A DNA stretch of 7,901 nucleotides from a virus. Its lineage: Duplodnaviria; Heunggongvirae; Uroviricota; Caudoviricetes. The notes beneath the pieces are model-generated. The model worked only from the letters and a program-made list of their open reading frames with translations, did not search any database and was not told the DNA's origin. The translations under genes and the position numbers were made by a program. The DNA is taken from the IMG/VR virus record IMGVR_UViG_2740892258_000002; one strand, 5' to 3'. Shown here piece by piece: positions 1 through 7,901 of the stretch; positions within the stretch are counted from its first letter, which is position 1, and each line of letters starts with the position of its first letter.

Positions 1-1
1 T

Positions 2-1066
2 CAGCAGAAGCCGGTCTGGGCACTGTGCAATGACACGGCCTGTTCTGCAGCCATGCTGCTGGCGTCGGCCTGCTCCCGACGGCTGGTTACCCAGACATCC
101 CGTATCGGCTCCATTGGCGTGATGATGAGCCATGTCAGCTATGCCGGTCATCTGGCGCAGGCCGGTGTGGATATCACGCTGATTTACTCAGGGGCGCACA
201 AGGTGGATGGCAATCAGTTTGAAGCGTTGCCGGCAGAGGTTCGCCAGGACATGCAGCAGCGGATTGATGCGGCGCGCCGGATGTTTGCCGAAAAAGTGGC
301 GATGTTTACCGGTCTGTCTGTTGATGCAGTCACGGGAACAGAGGCCGCTGTTTTTGAAGGTCAGTCCGGCATTGAGGCCGGGCTGGCGGATGAATTAATC
401 AATGCGTCGGATGCCATCAGTGTGATGGCCACGGCGCTGAACAGTAATGTCAGAGGAGGCACTATGCCGCAATTAACTGCAACGGAAGCCGCCGCGCAGG
501 AGAACCAGCGAGTGATGGGGATCCTGACATGCCAGGAAGCGAAAGGACGTGAACAGCTTGCCACGATGCTGGCAGGACAACAGGGCATGAGCGTTGAACA
601 GGCCCGGGCGATTCTGGCCGCGGCGGCACCGCAGCAGCCGGTGGCATCCGCGCAGAGTGAAGCCGATCGCATTATGGCGTGTGAAGAAGCGAACGGTCGT
701 GAACAACTGGCGGCAACGCTGGCGGCGATGCCGGAGATGACGGTGGAAAAAGCCCGCCCGATCCTGGCGGCTGCACCACTGGCGGATGCCGGGCCCTCGC
801 TTCGTGATCAGATCATGGCCCTGGATGAGGCAAAAGGGGCAGAAGCGCAGGCTGAAAAACTGGCGGCCTGCCCGGGAATGACCGTGGAGAACGCCCGGGC
901 TGTGCTGGCTGCGGGATCAGGTAAGGCCGAACCGGTCTCTGCATCCACAACCGCCCTGTTTGAACATTTCATGGCGAATCATTCACCGGCAGCGGTGCGG
1001 GGTGGCGTGTCACAGACGTCAGCAGACGGTGATGCGGACGTGAAAATGCTCATGGCCATGCCATGA
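2..1066 (+). CDS. C: Head maturation protease / scaffold (lambda C/Nu3-like), 5'-partial; the frame is open from the window edge
   Basis: Frame 2 has no stop from position 2 to the TGA at 1064-1066. The N-terminal part (KPVWALCNDTACSAAMLLASACSRRLVTQTSRIGSIGVMMSH...GLADELINASDAI) resembles the C-terminal half of S49/ClpP-like prohead proteases such as lambda gpC (match from memory). It sits immediately upstream of the D/FI/FII/Z/U/V synteny. Confidence 0.85.
   Translation, partial: QQKPVWALCNDTACSAAMLLASACSRRLVTQTSRIGSIGVMMSHVSYAGHLAQAGVDITLIYSGAHKVDGNQFEALPAEVRQDMQQRIDAARRMFAEKVAMFTGLSVDAVTGTEAAVFEGQSGIEAGLADELINASDAISVMATALNSNVRGGTMPQLTATEAAAQENQRVMGILTCQEAKGREQLATMLAGQQGMSVEQARAILAAAAPQQPVASAQSEADRIMACEEANGREQLAATLAAMPEMTVEKARPILAAAPLADAGPSLRDQIMALDEAKGAEAQAEKLAACPGMTVENARAVLAAGSGKAEPVSASTTALFEHFMANHSPAAVRGGVSQTSADGDADVKMLMAMP
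464..1066 (+). CDS. Possible nested in-frame scaffold protein (Nu3-like) from an internal start
   Basis: In-frame ATG at 464 lies 5-6 nt downstream of a strong Shine-Dalgarno GAGGAGG (453-459). The downstream portion is Ala/Glu/Gln-rich and low-complexity, as expected for a scaffold. In lambda, Nu3 is the in-frame C-terminal product of the C reading frame (established knowledge). Confidence 0.45.
   Translation: MPQLTATEAAAQENQRVMGILTCQEAKGREQLATMLAGQQGMSVEQARAILAAAAPQQPVASAQSEADRIMACEEANGREQLAATLAAMPEMTVEKARPILAAAPLADAGPSLRDQIMALDEAKGAEAQAEKLAACPGMTVENARAVLAAGSGKAEPVSASTTALFEHFMANHSPAAVRGGVSQTSADGDADVKMLMAMP
512..916 (+). repeat. Three tandem in-frame copies of a roughly 47-52 aa scaffold motif inside the C/Nu3 ORF
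   Basis: Translated units begin near 512, 668 and 809: RVMGILTCQEAKGREQLATMLAGQQGMSVEQARAILAAAAP / RIMACEEANGREQLAATLAAMPEMTVEKARPILAAAP / QIMALDEAKGAEAQAEKLAACPGMTVENARAVLAAG. Conserved core is (I/V)M-x-[CL]-[QED]-EA-[KN]-G-x-E ... GM-x-VE-x-AR-x-[IV]-LAA, with spacing of about 156 and 141 nt. Confidence 0.7.
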
Positions 1067-1102
1067 AGTCAGTGCTGACCATCAATAGGAGGTTTTTACA
1101 AT

Positions 1103-1210
1103 ATGGTGACGAAAACCATCACTGAACAGCGTGCGGAAGTACGTATTTTTGCCGGTAATGATCCGGCTCATACCGCCACAGGCAGCAGCGGGATTTCACA
1201 GGTGAAATAA
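1103..1210 (+). pseudogene. D: Truncated head decoration gene (lambda D-like N-terminal remnant, 35 codons)
   Basis: RBS TAGGAGG (1086-1092) then ATG at 1103. Translation MVTKTITEQRAEVRIFAGNDPAHTATGSSGISQVK* carries the GN-DPAHTAT motif that I recall near the N-terminus of lambda gpD (110 aa), but stops after 35 codons. Only 196 nt separate the protease stop from the FI start, so a full D and E cannot fit. Confidence 0.55.
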
Positions 1211-1218
1211 TCCGTGAG

Positions 1219-1247
1219 CGGGGGCGAAATGCCCCCGTGTCTTTTTT
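1219..1247 (+). terminator. GC-rich hairpin followed by a T-run (intrinsic-terminator-like or RNA-stabilising stem-loop)
   Basis: Stem CGGGGGC (1219-1225) pairs with GCCCCCG (1231-1237) across loop GAAAT, followed by TGTCTTTTTT (T-run 1242-1247). It lies between the D remnant and the FI RBS. Confidence 0.5.
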
Positions 1248-1261
1248 CACAGGAGGCTGAG

Positions 1262-1645
1262 ATGGCAACAAAAGAAGAAAATCTGAATCGTCTTCGTCAA
1301 CTGGCTGACCTGCTGGGGCGCGAGGCGGATATGTCGGGGAGTGCTGCGGATATTGCTCAACGTGTGTCTGAGTGGGAAGAGGAGCTTGCTGTTTCCCCGG
1401 AGGGCATTATGCACTCTGATGAGAGCGGGGCTGATCAAAATCACACAGACGATGGTGAGCAGTTGAACAACACGGATGCTCCGGATGATGTTAAAGCCGT
1501 CCGGGTACGGAAGTGCCTGCAAGTAATGGGGTATTGCCCGGAGACAGGTCGTCCCGTTGAGCTGGCGTTACGGGGTATGCGTGTTCTGGTGCCATCATCA
1601 CTGGCAACGGCCATGATACAGCACGGAACGGCTGAATATGCGTGA
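1262..1645 (+). CDS. FI: FI-like DNA-packaging / head assembly protein
   Basis: RBS AGGAGG (1251-1256) then ATG at 1262; this is preferred over the ORF-track start at 1214, which would begin inside the hairpin. Acidic N-terminal half and position directly upstream of FII fit lambda FI. The stop overlaps the FII start by 8 nt (ATGCGTGA). Confidence 0.75.
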   Translation: MATKEENLNRLRQLADLLGREADMSGSAADIAQRVSEWEEELAVSPEGIMHSDESGADQNHTDDGEQLNNTDAPDDVKAVRVRKCLQVMGYCPETGRPVELALRGMRVLVPSSLATAMIQHGTAEYA

Positions 1646-1991
1646 TTTTCAGAATGCCTTTGATGCTGCCCTCGCCGGGGTAGACAGTACGATCGTTGAA
1701 GTGATGGGGCTCTGTGCGCAGTTCACCTCGGGGGCACAGTGTGGCAGCGAAGTTCAGGGGGTTTTTGATGATCCGGAGTCGCTGGGGTTTGCCGGTGGCG
1801 GGGTCCGTATTGAAGGAAGCAGCCCGTCATTATTTGTGCGGACGGATACGGTTCGTGCCGTGCGGCGTGGTGACACGCTGACCATTAATGGTGAGATATT
1901 CTGGGTGGATCGTGTTTCTCCGGATGACGGGGGCAGCTGTTATCTCTGGCTCAACCGTGGTCAACCACCCGCAGTTAACCGGCGACGATAA
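1638..1991 (+). CDS. FII: FII-like head-tail joining protein (117 aa)
   Basis: 117 aa, the same length as lambda gpFII. Motifs GVFDDPE, EGSSPSLFVRTD, RRGDTLTI, FWVDRVSPDDGGSC and PPAVNRRR match my recollection of gpFII. Translationally coupled to FI. Confidence 0.85.
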   Translation: MRDFQNAFDAALAGVDSTIVEVMGLCAQFTSGAQCGSEVQGVFDDPESLGFAGGGVRIEGSSPSLFVRTDTVRAVRRGDTLTINGEIFWVDRVSPDDGGSCYLWLNRGQPPAVNRRR

Positions 1992-2006
1992 ACGCAGGGT
2001 GAAATT

Positions 2007-2540
2007 ATGGCGATAAAAGGGCTTGATCAGGCGATTGACAATCTGAGCCGGGTTCGTAAAAACGCCATTCCGGCGGCTTCAGCAATGGCCATTAACCGCG
2101 TGGCCACAACGGCGATTAATCAGTCTTCATCACAGGTTGCCCGGGAGACAAAGGTTCGCCGGAAACTGGTTAAGGAACGGTCCAGACTGAAACGGGCGAC
2201 GGTCAGAAATCCGAATGCCAGAATTATCGTTAACCGCGGTGATCTCCCTGTGATTAAGCTGGGGATCAGGATGCTGGGGCGTCGCCCGAACAGCATACTT
2301 AAAGCCGGTCAGCATCGGTATCAGCGGGCATTTATTCAGAGATTAAAAAATGGTCGCTGGCATGTCATGCAGCGTGTGGCCGGGAAAAACCGTTACCCCA
2401 TTGATGTGGTGAAAATCCCGATGGCGGCCCCACTGAAACAGGCATTTGATGAGAATGTTGACCGTATCCGGCGTGAACGCCTGCCTAAAGAACTGGCATA
2501 CGCGCTGAAACAACAACTGAGGATTGCAATAAAACGATGA
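2007..2540 (+). CDS. Z: Z-like tail completion protein
   Basis: MAIKGLDQAIDNLSRV...QVARETKVRRKLVKERSRLKRATV...NGRWHVMQRVAGKNRYPIDVVKIPMA...RIRRERLPKEL matches recalled lambda gpZ. RBS AGGGTGA lies upstream. Stop overlaps the U start (ATGA at 2537-2540). Confidence 0.85.
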   Translation: MAIKGLDQAIDNLSRVRKNAIPAASAMAINRVATTAINQSSSQVARETKVRRKLVKERSRLKRATVRNPNARIIVNRGDLPVIKLGIRMLGRRPNSILKAGQHRYQRAFIQRLKNGRWHVMQRVAGKNRYPIDVVKIPMAAPLKQAFDENVDRIRRERLPKELAYALKQQLRIAIKR

Positions 2541-2932
2541 AACACACTGACATTCGTGCCGCAGTGCTGGATGCACTCGAGCAGCATGAACACGGGGCGA
2601 CGCTGTTTGATGGTCGCCCCGTTGTTTTTGACGAAGAGGATTTTCCTGCGATCGCGGTTTATCTGACGGATGCAGAGTATACCGGTGAAGAGCTGGATGC
2701 AGATACCTGGCGGGCCACGCTGCATATTGAGGTGTTTTTACCGGCACAGGTACCGGATTCAGAGCTTGATCAGTGGATGGAAAGCCGGATTTACCCGGCG
2801 ATGACCGCGATCCCGGCACTGGCAGGACTGATTACCACGATGGTTACGCAGGGCTATGAGTATCGTCGTGATGACGATATGGCGTTATGGAGTTCTGCAG
2901 ATCTGACTTATTCCATTACATACGAGATGTGA
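2537..2932 (+). CDS. U: U-like tail terminator protein (131 aa)
   Basis: 131 aa, as for lambda gp[18 protein letters not shown]...[17 protein letters not shown]...YRRDDD...[14 protein letters not shown] matches recalled gpU at roughly 80% identity. Confidence 0.9.
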
Positions 2933-2939
2933 GGACGAT

Positions 2940-3692
2940 ATGGCAACACCAAATCCCCTTGAGCCGGTAAAAGGTGCCGGTACCACTCTGTGGGTTTACA
3001 ACGGCAAGGGTGATGCTTATGCAAACCCGTTGTCAGACGATGACTGGCAGCGACTGGCTAAGGTGAAGGATCTGACGCCGGGCGAGATGACGGCAGAATC
3101 CTACGATGATAACTACCTGGATGATGAAGACGCGGACTGGACCGCGACCGGGCAGGGGCAGAAATCTGCAGGTGATACCAGTTTTACGCTGGCCTGGAAA
3201 CCGGGAGAGGAAGGCCAGAAAGGGCTTATAGGCTGGTTTGAAAGCGGCGATGTCCGGGCCTATAAAATCCGTTTTCCGAATGGCACGGTGGATGTGTTTC
3301 GTGGCTGGGTCAGCAGTATCGGTAAGGCCGTGACGGCGAAAGAAGTGATCACCCGCACGGTGAAAGTCACTAACGTGGGTAAACCTTCTGTAGCGGAAGA
3401 ACGCAGCAAAATTACGCCGGTCAGTGCGATTAAGGTGACGCCGACATCCGGTACGGTGGCAAAAGGGAAAACAACCACCCTGACGGTTTCTTTTGAGCCG
3501 GAAAGTGCAACCGACAAGACGTTCAGAGCGGTTTCCGCCGATCCGTCGAAAGCCACCATTAGTGTGAAAGATATGACAATTACGGTAAACGGCGTGGCGA
3601 CAGGTAAGGTGCAGATCCCTGTGGTGAGCGGAAATGGTCAGTTCGCCGCAGTGGCTGAAGTCACCGTTACTGAAGCGGGCGCTGCAGGGTAA
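2940..3692 (+). CDS. V: Major tail tube protein V, copy 1 (250 aa) with C-terminal Ig-like (Big_2-type) domain
   Basis: RBS GAGGACGAT then [15 protein letters not shown]...[55 protein letters not shown]...[41 protein letters not shown] matches lambda gpV. The C-terminal region shows the TLTV...FRAVSAD...ATGKV pattern typical of Big_2 domains. Confidence 0.9.
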
Positions 3693-3705
3693 ACGGAGGT
3701 AATAC

Positions 3706-4137
3706 ATGTTTCTGAAAACAGAACAATTTGAATATAACGGTGTGTCTGTCACGCTTTCCGAATTGTCTGCGCTGCAGCGTATCGAGCATCTTGCCCTCCT
3801 GAAACGGCGTGCAGAACAGGCAGAATCCTGCGGCAACCTGCAGGTAAGCGTGGAAGATCTCGTCAGAACCGGCGCGTTTCTGGTGGCGATGTCCCTGTGG
3901 CATAACCATCCACAGAAAACGCAGTCACCGTCAATGAATGAGGCCGTGATGAAGATAGAGCAGGAAGTGCTCACCACCTGGCCTGCCGATGCCATTGCCC
4001 GGGCGGAAGACGTGGTGTTGTGCCTGTCCGGGATGATCGAAGCTGTTCGTCCGGATACTGATATTACTGAAGTGGCGAAAAATAACACGCTGACTGATGA
4101 TGATTTTTCTGCGGGAAAGTCTTCGACGGCGAGCTGA
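3706..4137 (+). CDS. G: Tail assembly chaperone G, copy 1 (143 aa)
   Basis: RBS GGAGG then ATG at 3706. MFLKTEQFEYNGVSVTLSELSALQRIEHL...TGAFLVAMSLWHNHPQKT...MNEAV.KIEQEVLTTWP matches lambda gpG. Ends at TGA 4135-4137, 16 nt after the slippery site. Confidence 0.85.
   Translation: MFLKTEQFEYNGVSVTLSELSALQRIEHLALLKRRAEQAESCGNLQVSVEDLVRTGAFLVAMSLWHNHPQKTQSPSMNEAVMKIEQEVLTTWPADAIARAEDVVLCLSGMIEAVRPDTDITEVAKNNTLTDDDFSAGKSSTAS
4113..4119 (+). promoter_or_regulatory. Programmed -1 ribosomal frameshift slippery heptamer G GGA AAG (G to GT), copy 1
   Basis: GGGAAAG at 4113-4119 with GGA and AAG in the G zero frame (codon phase matches the 3706 start). The -1 frame is open from 4119 into the T ORF (VFDGELNFALRLAREMGRPDW...). 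This is the same heptamer and position as the classical lambda G/GT frameshift. Confidence 0.75.
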
Positions 4138-4577
4138 ACTTTGCCCTCAGACTGGCGCGTGAGATGGGGAGACCCGACTGGCGCGCCATGCTTGCCGGGA
4201 TGACATCCACCGAATATGCCGACTGGCACCGTTTTTACCGCACGCATTATTTTCAGGATACCCAGCTGGATATGCATTTTTCCGGGCTGACGTACGCTGT
4301 ACTCAGCCTGTTTTTTTGCGATCCGGATATGCATCCCTCTGATTTCAGTCTGCTTGTCCCCCGGCATGAGGAAGAGCAGGTGGAGAGGCCGGATGAGGAC
4401 AAAATGCTGATGCAGAAAGCGGCAGGACTTGCCGGAGGCGTCCGGTTCGGTGGGGACGGAGGGCGCGATATTTTATCGTCTGCGGATGTGGCGGATGTCA
4501 TGGTGGATGATGCCGCATTAATGATGGCTTCAGCGGGGATTCCGGGAGGTGTGAGATATGTCCCAGCCGGTTGGTGA
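4119..4577 (+). CDS. T: T-frame portion of the GT tail assembly chaperone fusion, copy 1 (expressed only by -1 frameshift from G, not from its own start)
   Basis: The -1 frame is continuous from the slippery site to TGA at 4575-4577. Conserved T motifs are present: GRPDWRAMLAGM.STEYADWHRFY.THYF, HFSGLTY.VLSLFF.DPDMHP, LMQKAAGLAGGVRFG. No RBS precedes the ATG at 4164. Confidence 0.75.
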   Translation, partial: VFDGELNFALRLAREMGRPDWRAMLAGMTSTEYADWHRFYRTHYFQDTQLDMHFSGLTYAVLSLFFCDPDMHPSDFSLLVPRHEEEQVERPDEDKMLMQKAAGLAGGVRFGGDGGRDILSSADVADVMVDDAALMMASAGIPGGVRYVPAGW

Positions 4578-4938
4578 TCTTGTTATTGACCTGAGTCTGG
4601 ATGCTGTCCGTTTCGATGAGCAGATGAGCCGGGTAAGGCGTCATTTTTCAGGTCTGGATACCGACGCCAGAAAAACCGCCAGTGCTGTTGAACAGGGCCT
4701 GAGCCGCCAGGCGCTGGCTGCACAAAAAGCCGGGATTTCCGTCGGGCAGTATAAAGCGGCCATGCGAACCCTGCCCGCACAGTTTACGGATATCGCCACG
4801 CAGCTTGCCGGTGGTCAGAATCCCTGGTTGATCCTGCTGCAACAGGGCGGTCAGGTGAAGGACTCCTTCGGCGGGATGATCCCCATGTTCAGGGGGCTTG
4901 CCGGTGCGATCACGGCCTGTGGAGTTCAGCCGATCTGA
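4558..4938 (+). pseudogene. H: Tape measure protein H, copy 1, truncated after 119 codons at a rearrangement junction
   Basis: The N-terminus (M.QPVGDLVIDLSLDAVRFDEQM.RVRRHFSG...QALAAQKAGISVGQYKAAMR.LPAQFTD.ATQLAGGQ.PWLILLQQGGQVKDSFGGMIPMFRGLAGAIT) is collinear with copy 2 through nt 4913. The frame then runs into unrelated sequence (ACGVQPI) and stops at 4938. Lambda H is about 853 aa. Confidence 0.8.
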
Positions 4939-4964
4939 CTTATGTCATTACCTATGAAATGTGA
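4914..4964 (+). pseudogene. U: Relic of the last 16 codons plus stop of a second U gene ([16 protein letters not shown])
   Basis: Nucleotides 4914-4964 align with 2881-2932, the 3' end of U copy 1, and translate in the U frame to [16 protein letters not shown]. The same spacer and RBS (TGAGGACGCTATG) precede V copy 2 as precede V copy 1. Confidence 0.65.
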
Positions 4965-4971
4965 GGACGCT

Positions 4972-5712
4972 ATGCCTGTACCAAATCCTGTAATGCCGGT
5001 GAAAGGTGCCGGGACCACCCTGTGGGTTTATAAGGGGAGCGGTGACCCTTATGCGAACCCGCTTTCAGACGTTGACTGGTCGCGTCTGGCAAAAGTTAAA
5101 GACCTGACGCCCGGCGAACTGACCGCTGAGTCCTATGACGACAGCTATCTCGATGATGAAGATGCAGACTGGACTGCGACCGGGCAGGGGCAGAAATCTG
5201 CCGGAGATACCAGCTTCACGCTGGCGTGGATGCCCGGAGAGCAGGGGCAGCAGGCGCTGCTGGCGTGGTTTAATGAAGGTGATACCCGTGCCTATAAAAT
5301 CCGCTTCCCGAACGGCACGGTCGATGTGTTCCGTGGCTGGGTCAGCAGTATCGGTAAGGCGGTGACGGCGAAGGAAGCGATTACCCGCACGGTGAAGGTC
5401 ACCAATGTGGGACGTCCGTCGATGGCAGAAGATCGCAGCACGGTGACGGCGACGACCGGCATGACGGTGACACCCGCCAGTGCTTCCGTAGTGAAAGGGC
5501 AGAGCACCACGCTGACCGTGGCATTCCAGCCGGATGGCGCAACCGACAAGAGCTTCCGTGCGGTGTCTGCGGATAAAACAAAAGCCACCGTGTCGGTCAG
5601 TGGTATGACCATCACCGTGAAAGGTGTTGCTGCAGGCAAGGTCAACATTCCGGTCGTATCCGGTAATGGTGAGTTTGCTGCGGTTGCAGAAATCAACGTC
5701 ACCGCCAGTTAA
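4972..5712 (+). CDS. V: Major tail tube protein V, copy 2 (246 aa), lambda-type
   Basis: RBS GAGGACGCT then ATG at 4972. The ORF-track start at 4942 would read through the U relic and is rejected. [135 protein letters not shown] matches my recollection of lambda gpV almost residue for residue, and 246 aa is the lambda gpV length. Confidence 0.9.
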
Positions 5713-5727
5713 TCCGGAGAGTCAGCG

Positions 5728-6150
5728 ATGTTCCTGAAAACCGAATCATTTGAACATAACGGTGTGACCGTCACGCTTTCTGAACTGTCAGCCCTGCAGC
5801 GTATTGAGCATCTCGACCTGATGAAACGGCAGGCAGAACAGGCGGAGTCAGACAGCAACCGGAAGTTTACTGTGGAAGACGCCATCAGAACCGGCGCGTT
5901 TCTGGTGGCGATGTCCCTGTGGCATAACCATCCGAAGAAGACAAAGCTGCCTTCCATGAATGAAGCCGTTAAACAGATTGAGCAGGAAGTGCTTACCACC
6001 TGGCCCACGGAGGCAATTGCTCAGGCTGAAAACGTGGTGTACCGGCTGTCCGGTATGTATGAGTTTGTGGTGAATGATGCTCCTGAACAGGCAGAGGACG
6101 CCGGGCCTGCAGAGCCTGTTTCTGCGGGAAAGTGTTCGATGGTGAGCTGA
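5728..6150 (+). CDS. G: Tail assembly chaperone G, copy 2 (140 aa), lambda-type
   Basis: MFLKTESFEHNGVTVTLSELSALQRIEHLDLMKRQAEQAESDSNRKFTVEDAIRTGAFLVAMSLWHNHP...SAGKCSMVS; 140 aa as for lambda gpG. Paralogous to 3706-4137 at an estimated 75% amino-acid identity. Confidence 0.9.
   Translation: MFLKTESFEHNGVTVTLSELSALQRIEHLDLMKRQAEQAESDSNRKFTVEDAIRTGAFLVAMSLWHNHPKKTKLPSMNEAVKQIEQEVLTTWPTEAIAQAENVVYRLSGMYEFVVNDAPEQAEDAGPAEPVSAGKCSMVS
6126..6132 (+). promoter_or_regulatory. Programmed -1 ribosomal frameshift slippery heptamer G GGA AAG (G to GT), copy 2
   Basis: GGGAAAG at 6126-6132 in the correct phase relative to the G copy 2 start at 5728. The -1 frame is open from 6132 to TGA at 6564-6566. 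Confidence 0.8.
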
Positions 6151-6566
6151 GTTTTGCCCTGAAACTGGCGCGTGAGATGGGGCGACCCGACTGGCGTGCC
6201 ATGCTTGCCGGGATGTCATCCACGGAGTATGCCGACTGGCACCGCTTTTACAGTACCCATTATTTTCATGATGTTCTGCTGGATATGCACTTTTCCGGGC
6301 TGACGTACACCGTGCTCAGCCTGTTTTTCAGCGATCCGGATATGCATCCGCTGGATTTCAGTCTGCTGAACCGGCGCGAGGCTGACGAAGAGCCTGAAGA
6401 TGATGTGCTGATGCAGAAAGCGGCAGGGCTTGCCGGAGGTGTCCGCTTTGGCCCGGACGGGAATGAAGTTATCCCCGCTTCCCCGGATGTGGCGGACATG
6501 ACGGAGGATGACGTAATGCTGATGACAGTATCAGAAGGGATCGCAGGAGGAGTCCGGTATGGCTGA
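6132..6566 (+). CDS. T: T-frame portion of the GT tail assembly chaperone fusion, copy 2 (via -1 frameshift)
   Basis: VFDGELSFALKLAREMGRPDWRAMLAGMSSTEYADWHRFYSTHYFHDVLLDMHFSGLTYTVLSLFFSDPDMHP...LMQKAAGLAGGVRFG...GGVRYG matches my recollection of the lambda gpT segment. There is no independent RBS; the GTG at 6132 is not a real start. Confidence 0.8.
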   Translation: MFDGELSFALKLAREMGRPDWRAMLAGMSSTEYADWHRFYSTHYFHDVLLDMHFSGLTYTVLSLFFSDPDMHPLDFSLLNRREADEEPEDDVLMQKAAGLAGGVRFGPDGNEVIPASPDVADMTEDDVMLMTVSEGIAGGVRYG

Positions 6567-7901
6567 ACCGGTAGGCGATCTGGTCGTTGATTTAAGTCTG
6601 GATACGGCCAGATTTGACGAGCAGATGGCCAGAGTCAGGCGTCATTTTTCCGGTACGGAAAGTGATGCGAAAAAAACAGCGGCAGTCGTTGAACAGTCGC
6701 TGAGCCGACAGGCGCTGGCTGCACAGAAAGCGGGGATTTCCGTCGGGCAGTATAAAGCCGCCATGCGTATGCTGCCTGCACAGTTCACCGACGTGGCCAC
6801 GCAGCTTGCAGGCGGGCAAAGTCCGTGGCTGATCCTGCTGCAACAGGGTGGTCAGGTTAAGGACTCCTTCGGCGGGATGATCCCCATGTTCAGGGGGCTT
6901 GCCGGTGCGATCACCCTGCCGATGGTGGGGGCCACCTCGCTGGCGGTGGCGACCGGTGCGCTGGCGTATGCCTGGTATCAGGGCAACTCAACCCTGTCCG
7001 ATTTCAACAAAACGCTGGTCCTTTCCGGCAATCAGTCGGGACTGACGGCAGATCGTATTCTGGCCCTGTCCAGAGCCGGGCAGGCGGCAGGGCTGACGTT
7101 TAACCAGACCAGCGAGTCACTGACGGCGCTGGTGAATGCCGGTGTGCGTGGTGGTGAGCAGTTTGAGGCGATCAGCCAGAGTGTGGCGCGTTTCTCCTCT
7201 GCATCCGGCGTGGAGGTGGACAAGGTCGCTGAAGCCTTCGGGAAGCTGACCACAGACCCGACGTCGGGACTGACAGCGATGGCACGTCAGTTCCATAACG
7301 TGACGGCGGAGCAGATTGCGTATGTTGCTCAGTTGCAGCGTTCCGGAGATGAAGCCGGGGCATTGCAGGCGGCGAACGAGGCCGCAACGAAAGGGTTTGA
7401 TGACCAGACCCGCCGCCTGAAAGAGAACATGGGCACGCTGGAGACCTGGGCAGACAGGACAGCACGGGCATTCAAATCCATGTGGGATTCGGTGCTGGAT
7501 ATTGGTCGCCCGGACACTGCCCAGGGAATGCTGGAGAAAGCAGAAAAGGCTTTTGATGAGGCGGACAAAAAATGGCAGTGGTATCAGAGCCGGAGCCACC
7601 GGCGCGGTAAAACCTCAGCATTTCTTGCCAATCTCCGGGGAGCATGGGAGGACAGAGCGAATGCGCAACTTGGACTTTCAGCCGCCACGTTGCAGGCCGA
7701 TCTTGAAAAGGCCAGAGAGATGGCAGCAAAGGACTGGGCCGAGTCTGAGGCATCACGGCTGAAATATACCGAAGAGGCGCAGAAGGCTTACGAACGCCTG
7801 CAGACGCCGCTGGAGAAATATACCGCCCGTCAGGAAGAACTGAATAAGGCACTGAAAGACGGGAAAATCCTGCAGGCAGATTACAACACGCTGATGGCGG
7901 C
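6559..7901 (+). CDS. H: Tape measure protein H, copy 2, 3'-partial (continues past the window end), lambda-type
   Basis: ATG at 6559 overlaps the T stop by 8 nt. The frame stays open to the window end (447 codons) and is absent from the ORF track only because it has no stop. MAEPVGDLVVDLSLD.ARFDEQMARVRRHFSGTESDAKKTAAVVEQSLSRQALAAQKAGISVGQYKAAMRMLPAQFTDVATQLAGGQSPWLILLQQGGQVKDSFGGMIPMFRGLAGAITLPMVGATSLAVATGALAYAWYQGNSTLSDFNKTLVLSGNQ...RLKYTEEAQKAYERLQTPLEKYTARQEELNKALKDGKILQADYNTLMAA matches recalled lambda gpH. Confidence 0.9.
   Translation, partial: MAEPVGDLVVDLSLDTARFDEQMARVRRHFSGTESDAKKTAAVVEQSLSRQALAAQKAGISVGQYKAAMRMLPAQFTDVATQLAGGQSPWLILLQQGGQVKDSFGGMIPMFRGLAGAITLPMVGATSLAVATGALAYAWYQGNSTLSDFNKTLVLSGNQSGLTADRILALSRAGQAAGLTFNQTSESLTALVNAGVRGGEQFEAISQSVARFSSASGVEVDKVAEAFGKLTTDPTSGLTAMARQFHNVTAEQIAYVAQLQRSGDEAGALQAANEAATKGFDDQTRRLKENMGTLETWADRTARAFKSMWDSVLDIGRPDTAQGMLEKAEKAFDEADKKWQWYQSRSHRRGKTSAFLANLRGAWEDRANAQLGLSAATLQADLEKAREMAAKDWAESEASRLKYTEEAQKAYERLQTPLEKYTARQEELNKALKDGKILQADYNTLMA

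What the first reader, a model, noticed from the sequence alone, without database searches (positions are those of the whole stretch)
4105..4140. Both G/GT modules retain an intact GGGAAAG -1 frameshift site, including the copy upstream of the truncated H
The slippery heptamer is conserved in phase in both copies (4113-4119 and 6126-6132) despite about 20-25% divergence of surrounding codons. The -1 frame is open to the T stop in each. Copy 1 chaperones would serve a tape measure that is truncated to 126 aa, so they are either recently orphaned or can act in trans on the copy 2 tape measure. Two divergent G/GT chaperone sets acting on one H is an unusual configuration.
Basis: partly seen in the sequence, partly recalled or inferred. 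Interest (0 to 1): 0.4.

Follow-up and report, generated by a model that had tools for sequence, protein, structure and literature searches.

The report
Lambda G/GT frameshift sites, patchwork contig
Both GGGAAAG sites are real, but they are the textbook phage-lambda tail-chaperone frameshift signal copied unchanged from two different E. coli prophages, and their side-by-side arrangement exists only on one short draft contig, so the finding is ordinary.

Summary
GGGAAAG lies at 4113-4119 and 6126-6132. Each is in the G GGA AAG phase, five codons before the G stop, and the -1 frame stays open to the T stop (4575-4577; 6564-6566).

This is the known lambda gpG/gpGT programmed -1 frameshift. Copy 2 is almost lambda itself (T 144/144 aa). 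Copy 1 is a diverged allele (70-77% aa), and 78 of 78 of its relatives carry the same heptamer in phase.

The window is the entire 7,901-bp draft contig CVOH01000071.1, built from three blocks joined bluntly:
- 1-1197 matches the first prophage at 99.3%.
- 1198-4913 is 100% identical to an intact prophage at 1.46 Mb of E. coli IHE3034, which has its own full-length H.
- 4914-7901 is 100% identical to a second intact prophage at 0.588 Mb of the same genome.

Neither junction occurs in 5,426 complete E. coli genomes or in any other collection searched. Copy 1 has no substitutions since the join, so selection cannot be tested.

The "two chaperone sets, one H" layout is most likely an assembly chimera (about 0.6). 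Otherwise it is a very recent rearrangement in a prophage that also lacks its capsid gene (about 0.33). Nothing supports a selected dual-chaperone arrangement.

The parts
1..1197 (+). Block A: 3' part of the S49 head protease/scaffold gene (C/Nu3-like, ORF to 1066) plus the first 95 nt of the head-decoration gene D.
   Evidence: 99.3% identical to IHE3034 prophage at 1.46 Mb (L001 1347-2542), 8-9 mismatches. The best match in any complete E. coli genome is 99.4%.
1103..1210 (+). 35-aa in-frame D'-'E fusion ORF spanning junction J1 (1197|1198). Relative to the parent prophage, 1,326 bp (rest of D and nearly all of major capsid gene E) are missing.
   Evidence: L001 2542 joins to 3869 with no shared bases. 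The protein is found on this contig only. The junction is absent from all collections searched.
1198..4913 (+). Block B: E 3' end with terminator-like hairpin (1218-1238), then FI (1262-1645), FII (1638-1991), Z (2007-2540), U1 (2537-2932), V1 (2940-3692), G1, T1 and the first 356 nt of H1.
   Evidence: 100% identical (3,716/3,716) to IHE3034 1461380-1465083 (L001 3869-7584) and, over 1261-4910, to at least 14 other complete genomes. Pfam domain calls are; the hairpin is.
3706..4137 (+). G1, tail assembly chaperone G, copy 1 (143 aa).
   Evidence: PF06894 E=5e-51. 69% aa identity to lambda G over the full length; 74% over the part up to the slip site.
4113..4119 (+). Slippery heptamer 1, G GGA AAG, in phase with G1.
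   Evidence: 78 of 78 close relatives of G1 have it in the same phase.
4119..4577 (+). T1: -1 frame extension (152 aa plus stop), read only as a G1-T1 fusion of 290 aa.
   Evidence: Open frame. PF06223 E=4e-14.
4558..4938 (+). H1': truncated tape-measure ORF (126 aa). 119 aa come from H1, then 7 aa are read out of frame from the U2 3' end.
   Evidence: The exact protein is found on this contig only.
4913..4914 (.). Junction J2: H1 nt 356 joined bluntly to the last 51 nt of U from a different prophage.
   Evidence: L001 7584 joins to L002 5833 with no microhomology. The left side lies 56 nt into a 68-nt exact H1/H2 repeat. The junction is absent from 5,426 complete genomes and from the other collections.
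4914..7901 (+). Block C: 'U2 (4914-4964), V2 (4972-5712), G2, T2 and H2 (6559 to contig end, 447 aa visible).
   Evidence: 100% identical (2,988/2,988) to IHE3034 587832-590819 (L002 5833-8820). It is nearly lambda itself.
5728..6150 (+). G2, tail assembly chaperone G, copy 2 (140 aa).
   Evidence: PF06894 E=5e-59. 94% aa identity to lambda G.
6126..6132 (+). Slippery heptamer 2, G GGA AAG, in phase with G2.
   Evidence: The context matches lambda 10109-10115 apart from one base 13 nt downstream of the heptamer.
6132..6566 (+). T2: -1 frame extension (144 aa plus stop), read as a G2-T2 fusion of 279 aa.
   Evidence: Open frame. 144/144 aa identical to lambda T. PF06223 E=2e-14.

Best explanation
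Both heptamers are the canonical lambda gpG/gpGT programmed -1 ribosomal frameshift signal.

Mechanism, from the literature on lambda: with tRNA-Gly and tRNA-Lys on G GGA AAG, a few percent of ribosomes slip back one base. They bypass the G stop five codons downstream and continue in the T frame. The result is abundant G and rare G-T. G domains coat the tape-measure protein H, and the T domain recruits the tail-tube protein V.

Each copy here was inherited intact from a different, complete lambdoid prophage of ST95-type E. coli. Copy 1 comes from the prophage at 1.46 Mb in IHE3034. Copy 2 comes from a nearly lambda-identical prophage at 0.588 Mb.

Their tandem placement, with a 126-aa H stump between them, most likely does not exist in the cell. 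The window is a whole 7.9-kb contig of a draft assembly. It appears to be three repeat-bounded pieces (1-1197, 1198-4913, 4914-7901) abutted during assembly or scaffolding of multi-copy prophage sequence.

Shown: the sites, phases, open frames, family membership, 100% identity of the blocks to two intact prophages, and the uniqueness and bluntness of the junctions. Inferred: that frameshifting actually occurs, and that the junctions are artefacts.
For: Frameshift module:
- Positions, phase and open -1 frames.
- Pfam G, T and H families well above their cut-offs.
- Copy 2's T is 100% aa identical to lambda T, with near-identical slip-site context.
- 78 of 78 relatives of G1 keep the heptamer in phase.
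- Lambda mechanism, about 4% frameshifting and a G:GT ratio near 30:1: PMC3296357 and PMC5009743.

Origin:
- Blocks B and C are 100% identical to two separate IHE3034 prophages, each with a full U-V-G-T-H set (H of 857 and 859 aa).
- dN/dS between the copies is 0.11-0.32, which is purifying selection during divergence in the parent phages.

Artefact reading:
- The window equals the entire contig CVOH01000071.1 of GCA_001245225.1. Both junction-spanning proteins occur on that contig only, among 153 billion gene positions.
- No J1 or J2 in 5,426 complete E. coli genomes, nor in the genome, viral or metagenome collections.
- All 9 long-contig contexts of V2 show the canonical Z-U-V-G-T-H order.
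- Both junctions are blunt. A genuine D-E deletion in a complete genome shows about 15 nt of overlap.
- The J2 left end lies inside one of the few exact repeats between the two prophages. About 5% of block B lies in such repeats. That is where a short-read contig would be expected to stop.
- The join runs from 1.465 Mb back to 0.588 Mb on the same strand, which a simple deletion cannot produce.
- IHE3034 carries at least 3 places matching the U2-V2 region, so these sequences are multi-copy.
Against: - The contig has no Ns. A pure de Bruijn contig needs read support for every k-mer, so blunt joins need a scaffolder or gap-closer step. I could not identify the assembler.
- Only one of the six block ends (the B end) could be tied to a repeat. 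The other lambdoid prophages of the lineage could not be retrieved.
- A simple k-mer reading (k=57) does not explain why a 61-nt repeat inside block B did not also break the contig.
- Real prophage decay, including D-E deletions, does occur.
- No reads were available, so the artefact remains an inference.
Confidence: 0.6

Rival explanations
1. The junctions are real. The isolate carries a hybrid, defective lambdoid prophage created very recently by two illegitimate (homology-independent) events. One is an in-frame 1,326-bp D-E deletion. The other joins H1 nt 356 to the U2 3' end, for example by illegitimate integration of a lambda-like genome into the resident prophage, or by a deletion within tandem prophages. 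G1/GT1 are then freshly orphaned passengers that have not had time to decay. Their intact slip site reflects recency, not function.
For: - The contig is continuous without Ns, and de Bruijn contigs normally require reads across every junction (inference about assemblers).
- Block A carries 8-9 private differences from all complete genomes, so the strain's prophage is not simply the IHE3034 one.
- Decaying prophages with D-E deletions, IS insertions and frameshifts exist in finished genomes.
- Zero substitutions in blocks B and C fit a very recent event.
Against: - It needs two independent zero-microhomology events within 4 kb.
- It needs a join between prophages that lie 877 kb apart in the closest finished genomes, in an order a deletion cannot give.
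- There is no second sighting anywhere.
- The breakpoint coincides with an inter-prophage exact repeat without using it for recombination.
Confidence: 0.33
2. One reading: the arrangement is real and maintained. Two divergent G/GT chaperone sets (and two V proteins) are co-expressed, and copy 1 acts in trans on the copy 2 tape measure. This could broaden or modulate tail assembly, or interfere with it.
For: - Both modules are intact and lie in one transcriptional direction, with no predicted + strand terminator between them.
- H1 and H2 are 83% identical overall and 86% over the first 118 aa, so some cross-recognition is conceivable. G is reported to bind multiple regions of H.
Against: - There has been no time for selection: 0 substitutions against the intact parents.
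- The same element lacks major capsid gene E, so no virions could be made and tail assembly is moot.
- The arrangement is not seen in any other genome or phage.
- Lambda tail assembly needs a balanced G:GT ratio, so an extra heterologous set is more likely harmful or neutral.
Confidence: 0.03

Closest known systems
Bacteriophage lambda gpG/gpGT tail assembly chaperones with programmed -1 frameshift (NC_001416 G 9711-10133, T 10115-10549, slip site 10109-10115; Levin, Hendrix & Casjens 1993; Xu, Hendrix & Duda 2004, 2013, 2014)
   Same: - Same gene order V-G-T-H.
- Same heptamer G GGA AAG in the same phase, five codons before the G stop.
- Same overlap geometry.
- Copy 2: T 144/144 aa, G 94%, V 97%, H N-terminus 99% identical to lambda.
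- Copy 1: 74-78% aa identical for G, T and V, 87% for the H N-terminus.
   Different: Nothing in the mechanism differs. Copy 1 has a longer, diverged G C-terminal linker (3 extra residues) and a T part 8 aa longer (GT of 290 against 279 aa).
Intact prophages of E. coli IHE3034 (NC_017628.1): ECOK1_RS07555-RS07570 at 1.46 Mb and ECOK1_RS02880-RS02895 at 0.588 Mb
   Same: Window 1198-4913 and 4914-7901 are base-for-base identical to these two loci.
   Different: In IHE3034, each G/T pair is followed by its own full-length H (857 and 859 aa), D and E are complete, and the two loci are 877 kb apart. The window joins them bluntly.
Naturally decayed relative: prophage of E. coli BEC1-S17-ESBL-09 (NZ_AP022298.1, 2.86 Mb)
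   Same: Same prophage type (G and T proteins identical to copy 1). The major capsid gene is lost through a D-E deletion.
   Different: Its deletion has other breakpoints and about 15 nt of overlap at the junction. It occurs in a finished genome alongside an IS200 insertion and frameshifted genes, and it has only one V-G-T-H set.

Membership tests
Lambda-type G/GT tail assembly chaperone with programmed -1 frameshift | Chaperone ORF lies between the major tail (tube) gene and the tape-measure gene. | tested here: met
   V1-G1-T1-H1' and V2-G2-T2-H2.
Lambda-type G/GT tail assembly chaperone with programmed -1 frameshift | Slippery heptamer X XXY YYZ in the zero-frame phase near the 3' end of G. 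| tested here: met
   G GGA AAG at 4113-4119 and 6126-6132, five codons before each G stop. Identical to lambda's site.
Lambda-type G/GT tail assembly chaperone with programmed -1 frameshift | -1 frame is open from the heptamer to a stop just inside or before the tape-measure gene. | tested here: met
   152 and 144 sense codons after the slip, with stops at 4575-4577 and 6564-6566.
Lambda-type G/GT tail assembly chaperone with programmed -1 frameshift | Sequence membership in Phage_TAC_2 (PF06894) and Phage_tail_T (PF06223). | tested here: met
   G1 172 bits and G2 198 bits (cut-off 27). T1 53 bits and T2 54 bits (cut-off 25.9).
Lambda-type G/GT tail assembly chaperone with programmed -1 frameshift | A cognate full-length tape-measure protein is encoded directly downstream. 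| tested here: inconclusive
   Copy 2: H2 runs off the contig after 447 aa but is 859 aa in the identical IHE3034 locus. Copy 1: not met in the window (126-aa stump) but met in the identical parent locus (857 aa).
Lambda-type G/GT tail assembly chaperone with programmed -1 frameshift | A frameshift product GT is actually made at a few percent of G. | not testable with these tools
   Known for lambda. Here it is inferred from identity of the site and context.
Genuine genomic rearrangement (tandem V-G-T-H' segment in a prophage) | The junction is seen in independent assemblies or genomes. | tested here: not met
   0 of 5,426 complete E. coli genomes. 0 in GTDB representatives, IMG/VR and JGI metagenomes. 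The junction proteins occur on one contig only.
Genuine genomic rearrangement (tandem V-G-T-H' segment in a prophage) | Read-level support across the junctions at chromosomal depth. | not testable with these tools
   No reads are available. The contig is from draft assembly GCA_001245225.1.
Genuine genomic rearrangement (tandem V-G-T-H' segment in a prophage) | The junction carries a signature of a known recombination route (homology or microhomology). | tested here: not met
   Both junctions have 0 shared bases. A natural deletion in L004 has about 15 nt.

The most novel reading that the evidence does not exclude
The junctions are real, and the isolate carries a hybrid defective prophage. From one late operon it co-expresses two heterologous V/G/GT sets ahead of a single intact lambda-like tape measure. 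The diverged G1/GT1 set (70-75% aa identity to lambda's) would then either cross-chaperone or poison assembly on H2. That would be a natural experiment on chaperone/tape-measure specificity, or an accidental tail-assembly interference module.
Probability: 0.04. Interest if true: 0.35.

Novelty: already known. Interest (0 to 1): 0.07.

Why it matters
It matters little for biology. The G/GT frameshift of lambda-like phages has been characterised since 1993, and both copies here are verbatim alleles from intact prophages. The practical value is as a caution. Short draft contigs built from multi-copy prophage sequence can place modules from different prophages side by side, and 'conservation despite divergence' between such modules reflects their separate histories, not selection on the apparent arrangement. 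Reference annotation also still lists G and T as separate genes without the ribosomal-slippage join.

Tried and rejected
1. A k-mer explanation of the block ends. J2's left end lies exactly 56 nt into a 68-nt H1/H2 repeat, which suggests k=57. A 61-nt repeat inside block B did not break the contig, and the A end does not fit, so k could not be established.

2. Locating the other lambdoid prophages of IHE3034, to test whether all block ends coincide with within-genome repeat boundaries. The search tool reports only the best place per record. Place counts show further copies (3-5 places), but I could not obtain coordinates.

3. Exact-match scans for both junctions in GTDB genomes, IMG/VR and JGI metagenomes found nothing.

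4. A literature search for the assembly accession found nothing.

5. A downstream RNA stimulator. A G+C-rich hairpin is conserved in copy 1, copy 2 and lambda, with z=-3.65 for copy 1 but only -1.6 for copy 2 and lambda. It starts 33 nt after the heptamer and overlaps a conserved T peptide, so I do not claim it as a frameshift stimulator.

6. It is uninformative, because copy 1 is 100% identical to intact prophage genes. Only the historical copy 1 versus copy 2 values could be computed.

Full report
**1. Observation**

The window holds a lambda-like late operon on the + strand. Its genes are:
- the C/Nu3 3' part
- a 35-aa D stump
- FI, FII, Z and U
- V (2940-3692), G (3706-4137), a T frame and a 126-aa H stump (4558-4938)
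- the last 51 nt of a U gene
- a second V (4972-5712), G (5728-6150), T frame and H (6559 to the contig end)

GGGAAAG occurs exactly twice in the window, at 4113-4119 and 6126-6132. The count alone is unremarkable: 1.15 are expected, and 63 of 200 shuffles give at least 2.

The geometry is not chance:
- Both heptamers start at codon position 3 of their G ORF, giving G GGA AAG.
- Both lie five codons before the G stop.
- The -1 frame read from each has no stop until 4575-4577 and 6564-6566.
- The predicted fusion proteins are 290 aa (138+152) and 279 aa (135+144).

Divergence between the copies is 74-82% nt and 70-86% aa per gene, and 74-88% by repeat block.

**2. What the modules are**

Pfam places G1 and G2 in Phage_TAC_2 (172 and 198 bits). 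The -1 frames fall in Phage_tail_T (53 and 54 bits), V1 and V2 in the lambda tail-tube family plus Big_2, and H in TMP_2.

Against lambda (NC_001416):
- Copy 2 is nearly lambda itself: T 144/144 aa (431/432 nt), G 94%, V 97%, first 118 aa of H 99%.
- In the 52-nt window compared around the slip site, copy 2 differs from lambda 10109-10115 at a single base, 13 nt downstream of the heptamer.
- Copy 1 is a diverged allele, 74-78% aa identical to lambda for G, T and V and 87% for the H N-terminus. It has a longer G linker.

Of the 80 closest IMG/VR relatives of G1, all 78 with a recognisable G start carry GGGAAAG in the same phase.

The literature describes this site. In lambda, about 4% of ribosomes slip -1 on GGGAAAG, giving a G:GT ratio near 30:1 that must stay balanced. 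G binds multiple regions of tape-measure protein H, and the T domain binds tail-tube protein V (PMC3296357; PMC5009743, citing Levin et al. 1993 and Xu et al. 2004, 2013, 2014). Both sites are therefore members of an already characterised system.

**3. Where the sequence comes from**

An exact-protein look-up of the H stump and of the D stump returns one place only. That place is contig CVOH01000071.1 of draft assembly GCA_001245225.1, which is 7,901 bp long, so the window is the entire contig.

blastn against two prophages of E. coli IHE3034 resolves the contig into three blocks:

| Block | Window | Match | Identity |
|---|---|---|---|
| A | 2-1197 | L001 1347-2542 | 99.3% |
| B | 1198-4913 | L001 3869-7584 | 100% (3,716/3,716) |
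| C | 4914-7901 | L002 5833-8820 | 100% (2,988/2,988) |

L001 is the prophage at 1.46 Mb and L002 the prophage at 0.588 Mb, both on the same strand of the same chromosome. In IHE3034 each has complete D, E, U, V, G and T genes and its own full-length H (857 and 859 aa; 83% identical).

Window 1261-4910, which is nearly all of block B, is 100% identical in at least 15 complete genomes, and 309 records match at 99% or better. Block C is 100% identical in at least 9 complete genomes. Block A differs at 8-9 positions from every complete genome.

**4. The junctions**

J1 (1197|1198) removes 1,326 bp, the rest of D and nearly all of major capsid gene E. It leaves an in-frame 35-aa ORF. J2 (4913|4914) joins H1 nt 356 to the last 51 nt of U2. 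Both are blunt, with no shared base on either side.

Neither junction was found anywhere else:
- None of the 5,426 complete E. coli genomes contains J1 or J2.
- Exact junction 30-36-mers are absent from the GTDB representative genomes, IMG/VR and the JGI metagenomes.
- All nine long-contig contexts of the exact V2 protein show the canonical Z-U-V-G-T-H order.

A genuine D-E deletion in finished genome BEC1-S17-ESBL-09 has different breakpoints and about 15 nt of overlap at the join.

J2's left side lies 56 nt into a 68-nt exact repeat shared by H1 and H2 (L001 7529-7596 = L002 7778-7845). Only about 5% of block B lies in exact repeats of 30 nt or more with the other prophage. The join does not use that homology, because it goes to U2 and not to H2. 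This fits a short-read contig ending at a graph branch point better than it fits recombination.

The direction of the join, from 1.465 Mb back to 0.588 Mb on the same strand, cannot arise by a simple deletion in an IHE3034-like chromosome. It would need a duplication junction or the insertion of a second phage genome.

**5. Interpretation**

What can be said firmly is that the two frameshift sites are intact because each block is an unaltered copy of a working prophage module.

The 20-25% divergence, and the dN/dS of 0.11-0.32 between the copies, record purifying selection in two separate phage lineages. They say nothing about selection on this arrangement. Copy 1 has accumulated zero substitutions since the join, so the proposed dN/dS test for 'orphaned' chaperones has no power.

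Whether the join exists in the cell is not settled. I favour an assembly or scaffolding chimera of three repeat-bounded pieces (about 0.6), for these reasons:
- It is a short contig made of multi-copy prophage sequence.
- It has two blunt, unique junctions.
- One block end coincides with an inter-prophage repeat.
- The topology is implausible.

Against this:
- The contig has no Ns.
- De Bruijn contigs normally need read support across every k-mer.
- I could not identify the assembler or tie the other block ends to repeats.

The alternative (about 0.33) is a very recent double illegitimate rearrangement in a prophage that lacks its capsid gene. G1/GT1 would then be freshly orphaned passengers.

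A maintained, trans-acting dual-chaperone system (about 0.03) has no support. There has been no time for selection, the element is defective, no second occurrence exists, and lambda tail assembly is sensitive to the G:GT balance.

**6. Comparison and novelty**

The mechanism and family are those of lambda gpG/gpGT. All sequence-level defining features are met for both copies. The only one not met is a full-length downstream H for copy 1 in this contig, and it is met in the identical parent locus. The frameshift itself is already known, and the apparently unusual configuration is probably not a real feature of the genome. Interest is low.

**7. Dead ends**

- A k=57 reading of the block ends was not consistent across ends.
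- The further lambdoid prophages of the lineage could be counted but not retrieved.
- The accession is not mentioned in the searchable literature.
- A conserved hairpin starts 33 nt downstream of the heptamer. It is too distant, and too entangled with conserved coding sequence, to call a stimulator.

Noticed in passing
window 1103-1210 (junction 1197|1198): A 35-aa in-frame D'-'E fusion ORF is created by a blunt loss of exactly 1,326 bp (442 codons). The major capsid gene E is absent from the contig. The ORF is followed by the E terminator-like hairpin at 1218-1238.
   Followed up: yes
window ~470-930 (within ORF 53-1066): The scaffold (Nu3-like) C-terminal part of the S49 head protease contains three diverged tandem repeats of about 47 aa (…EAKGREQLATMLAGQQGMSVEQARAILAAA…), with 16 invariant columns. 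The parent protein is 501 aa against 439 aa for lambda C.
   Followed up: partly
window 4153-4188 and 6166-6201 (also lambda, L005 ~5150-5185): A G+C-rich hairpin is conserved 33 nt downstream of both slip sites (z=-3.65 for copy 1; -1.6 for copy 2 and lambda). It overlaps the conserved T peptide LAREMGRPDWRAML and lies too far downstream for a classic -1 frameshift stimulator.
   Followed up: partly
window 4394-4459, 6395-6460, 6506-6571: The C-terminus of the T frame carries an internal repeat (…LMQKAAGLAGGVRFG… / …LMTVSEGIAGGVRYG…), reported as repeat family D5. Its function is unknown.
   Followed up: no
L001 9779-11614 = L002 10034-11869 (IHE3034): The two IHE3034 prophages share an exact 1,836-nt repeat across the M-L-K tail genes, plus 140-nt and 68-nt exact repeats in H. 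Repeats of this kind fragment or mislead short-read assemblies.
   Followed up: partly
L001 6377-7248; L002 6647-7485 (IHE3034 RefSeq annotation): G and T are annotated as separate CDSs, with T starting at an internal ATG in one prophage and at a GTG on the slip site in the other. There is no ribosomal-slippage join, although T is only known to be made as a G-T fusion. The lambda RefSeq record does the same.
   Followed up: no
L004 (NZ_AP022298.1, 2856715-2869312): A finished genome holds a naturally decayed relative of prophage 1. It has a D-E deletion with about 15 nt of junction overlap, IS200 inserted in U, and frameshifted terminase and protease genes.
   Followed up: partly
window 1-1197: Block A differs at 8-9 positions (1, 28, 49, 109, 495, 577, 1088, 1097, 1102) from IHE3034, and no complete E. 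coli genome matches it at 100% (best 99.4%). Blocks B and C are 100% identical to many genomes. It could be strain-specific variation or a consensus of paralogous prophage copies.
   Followed up: partly
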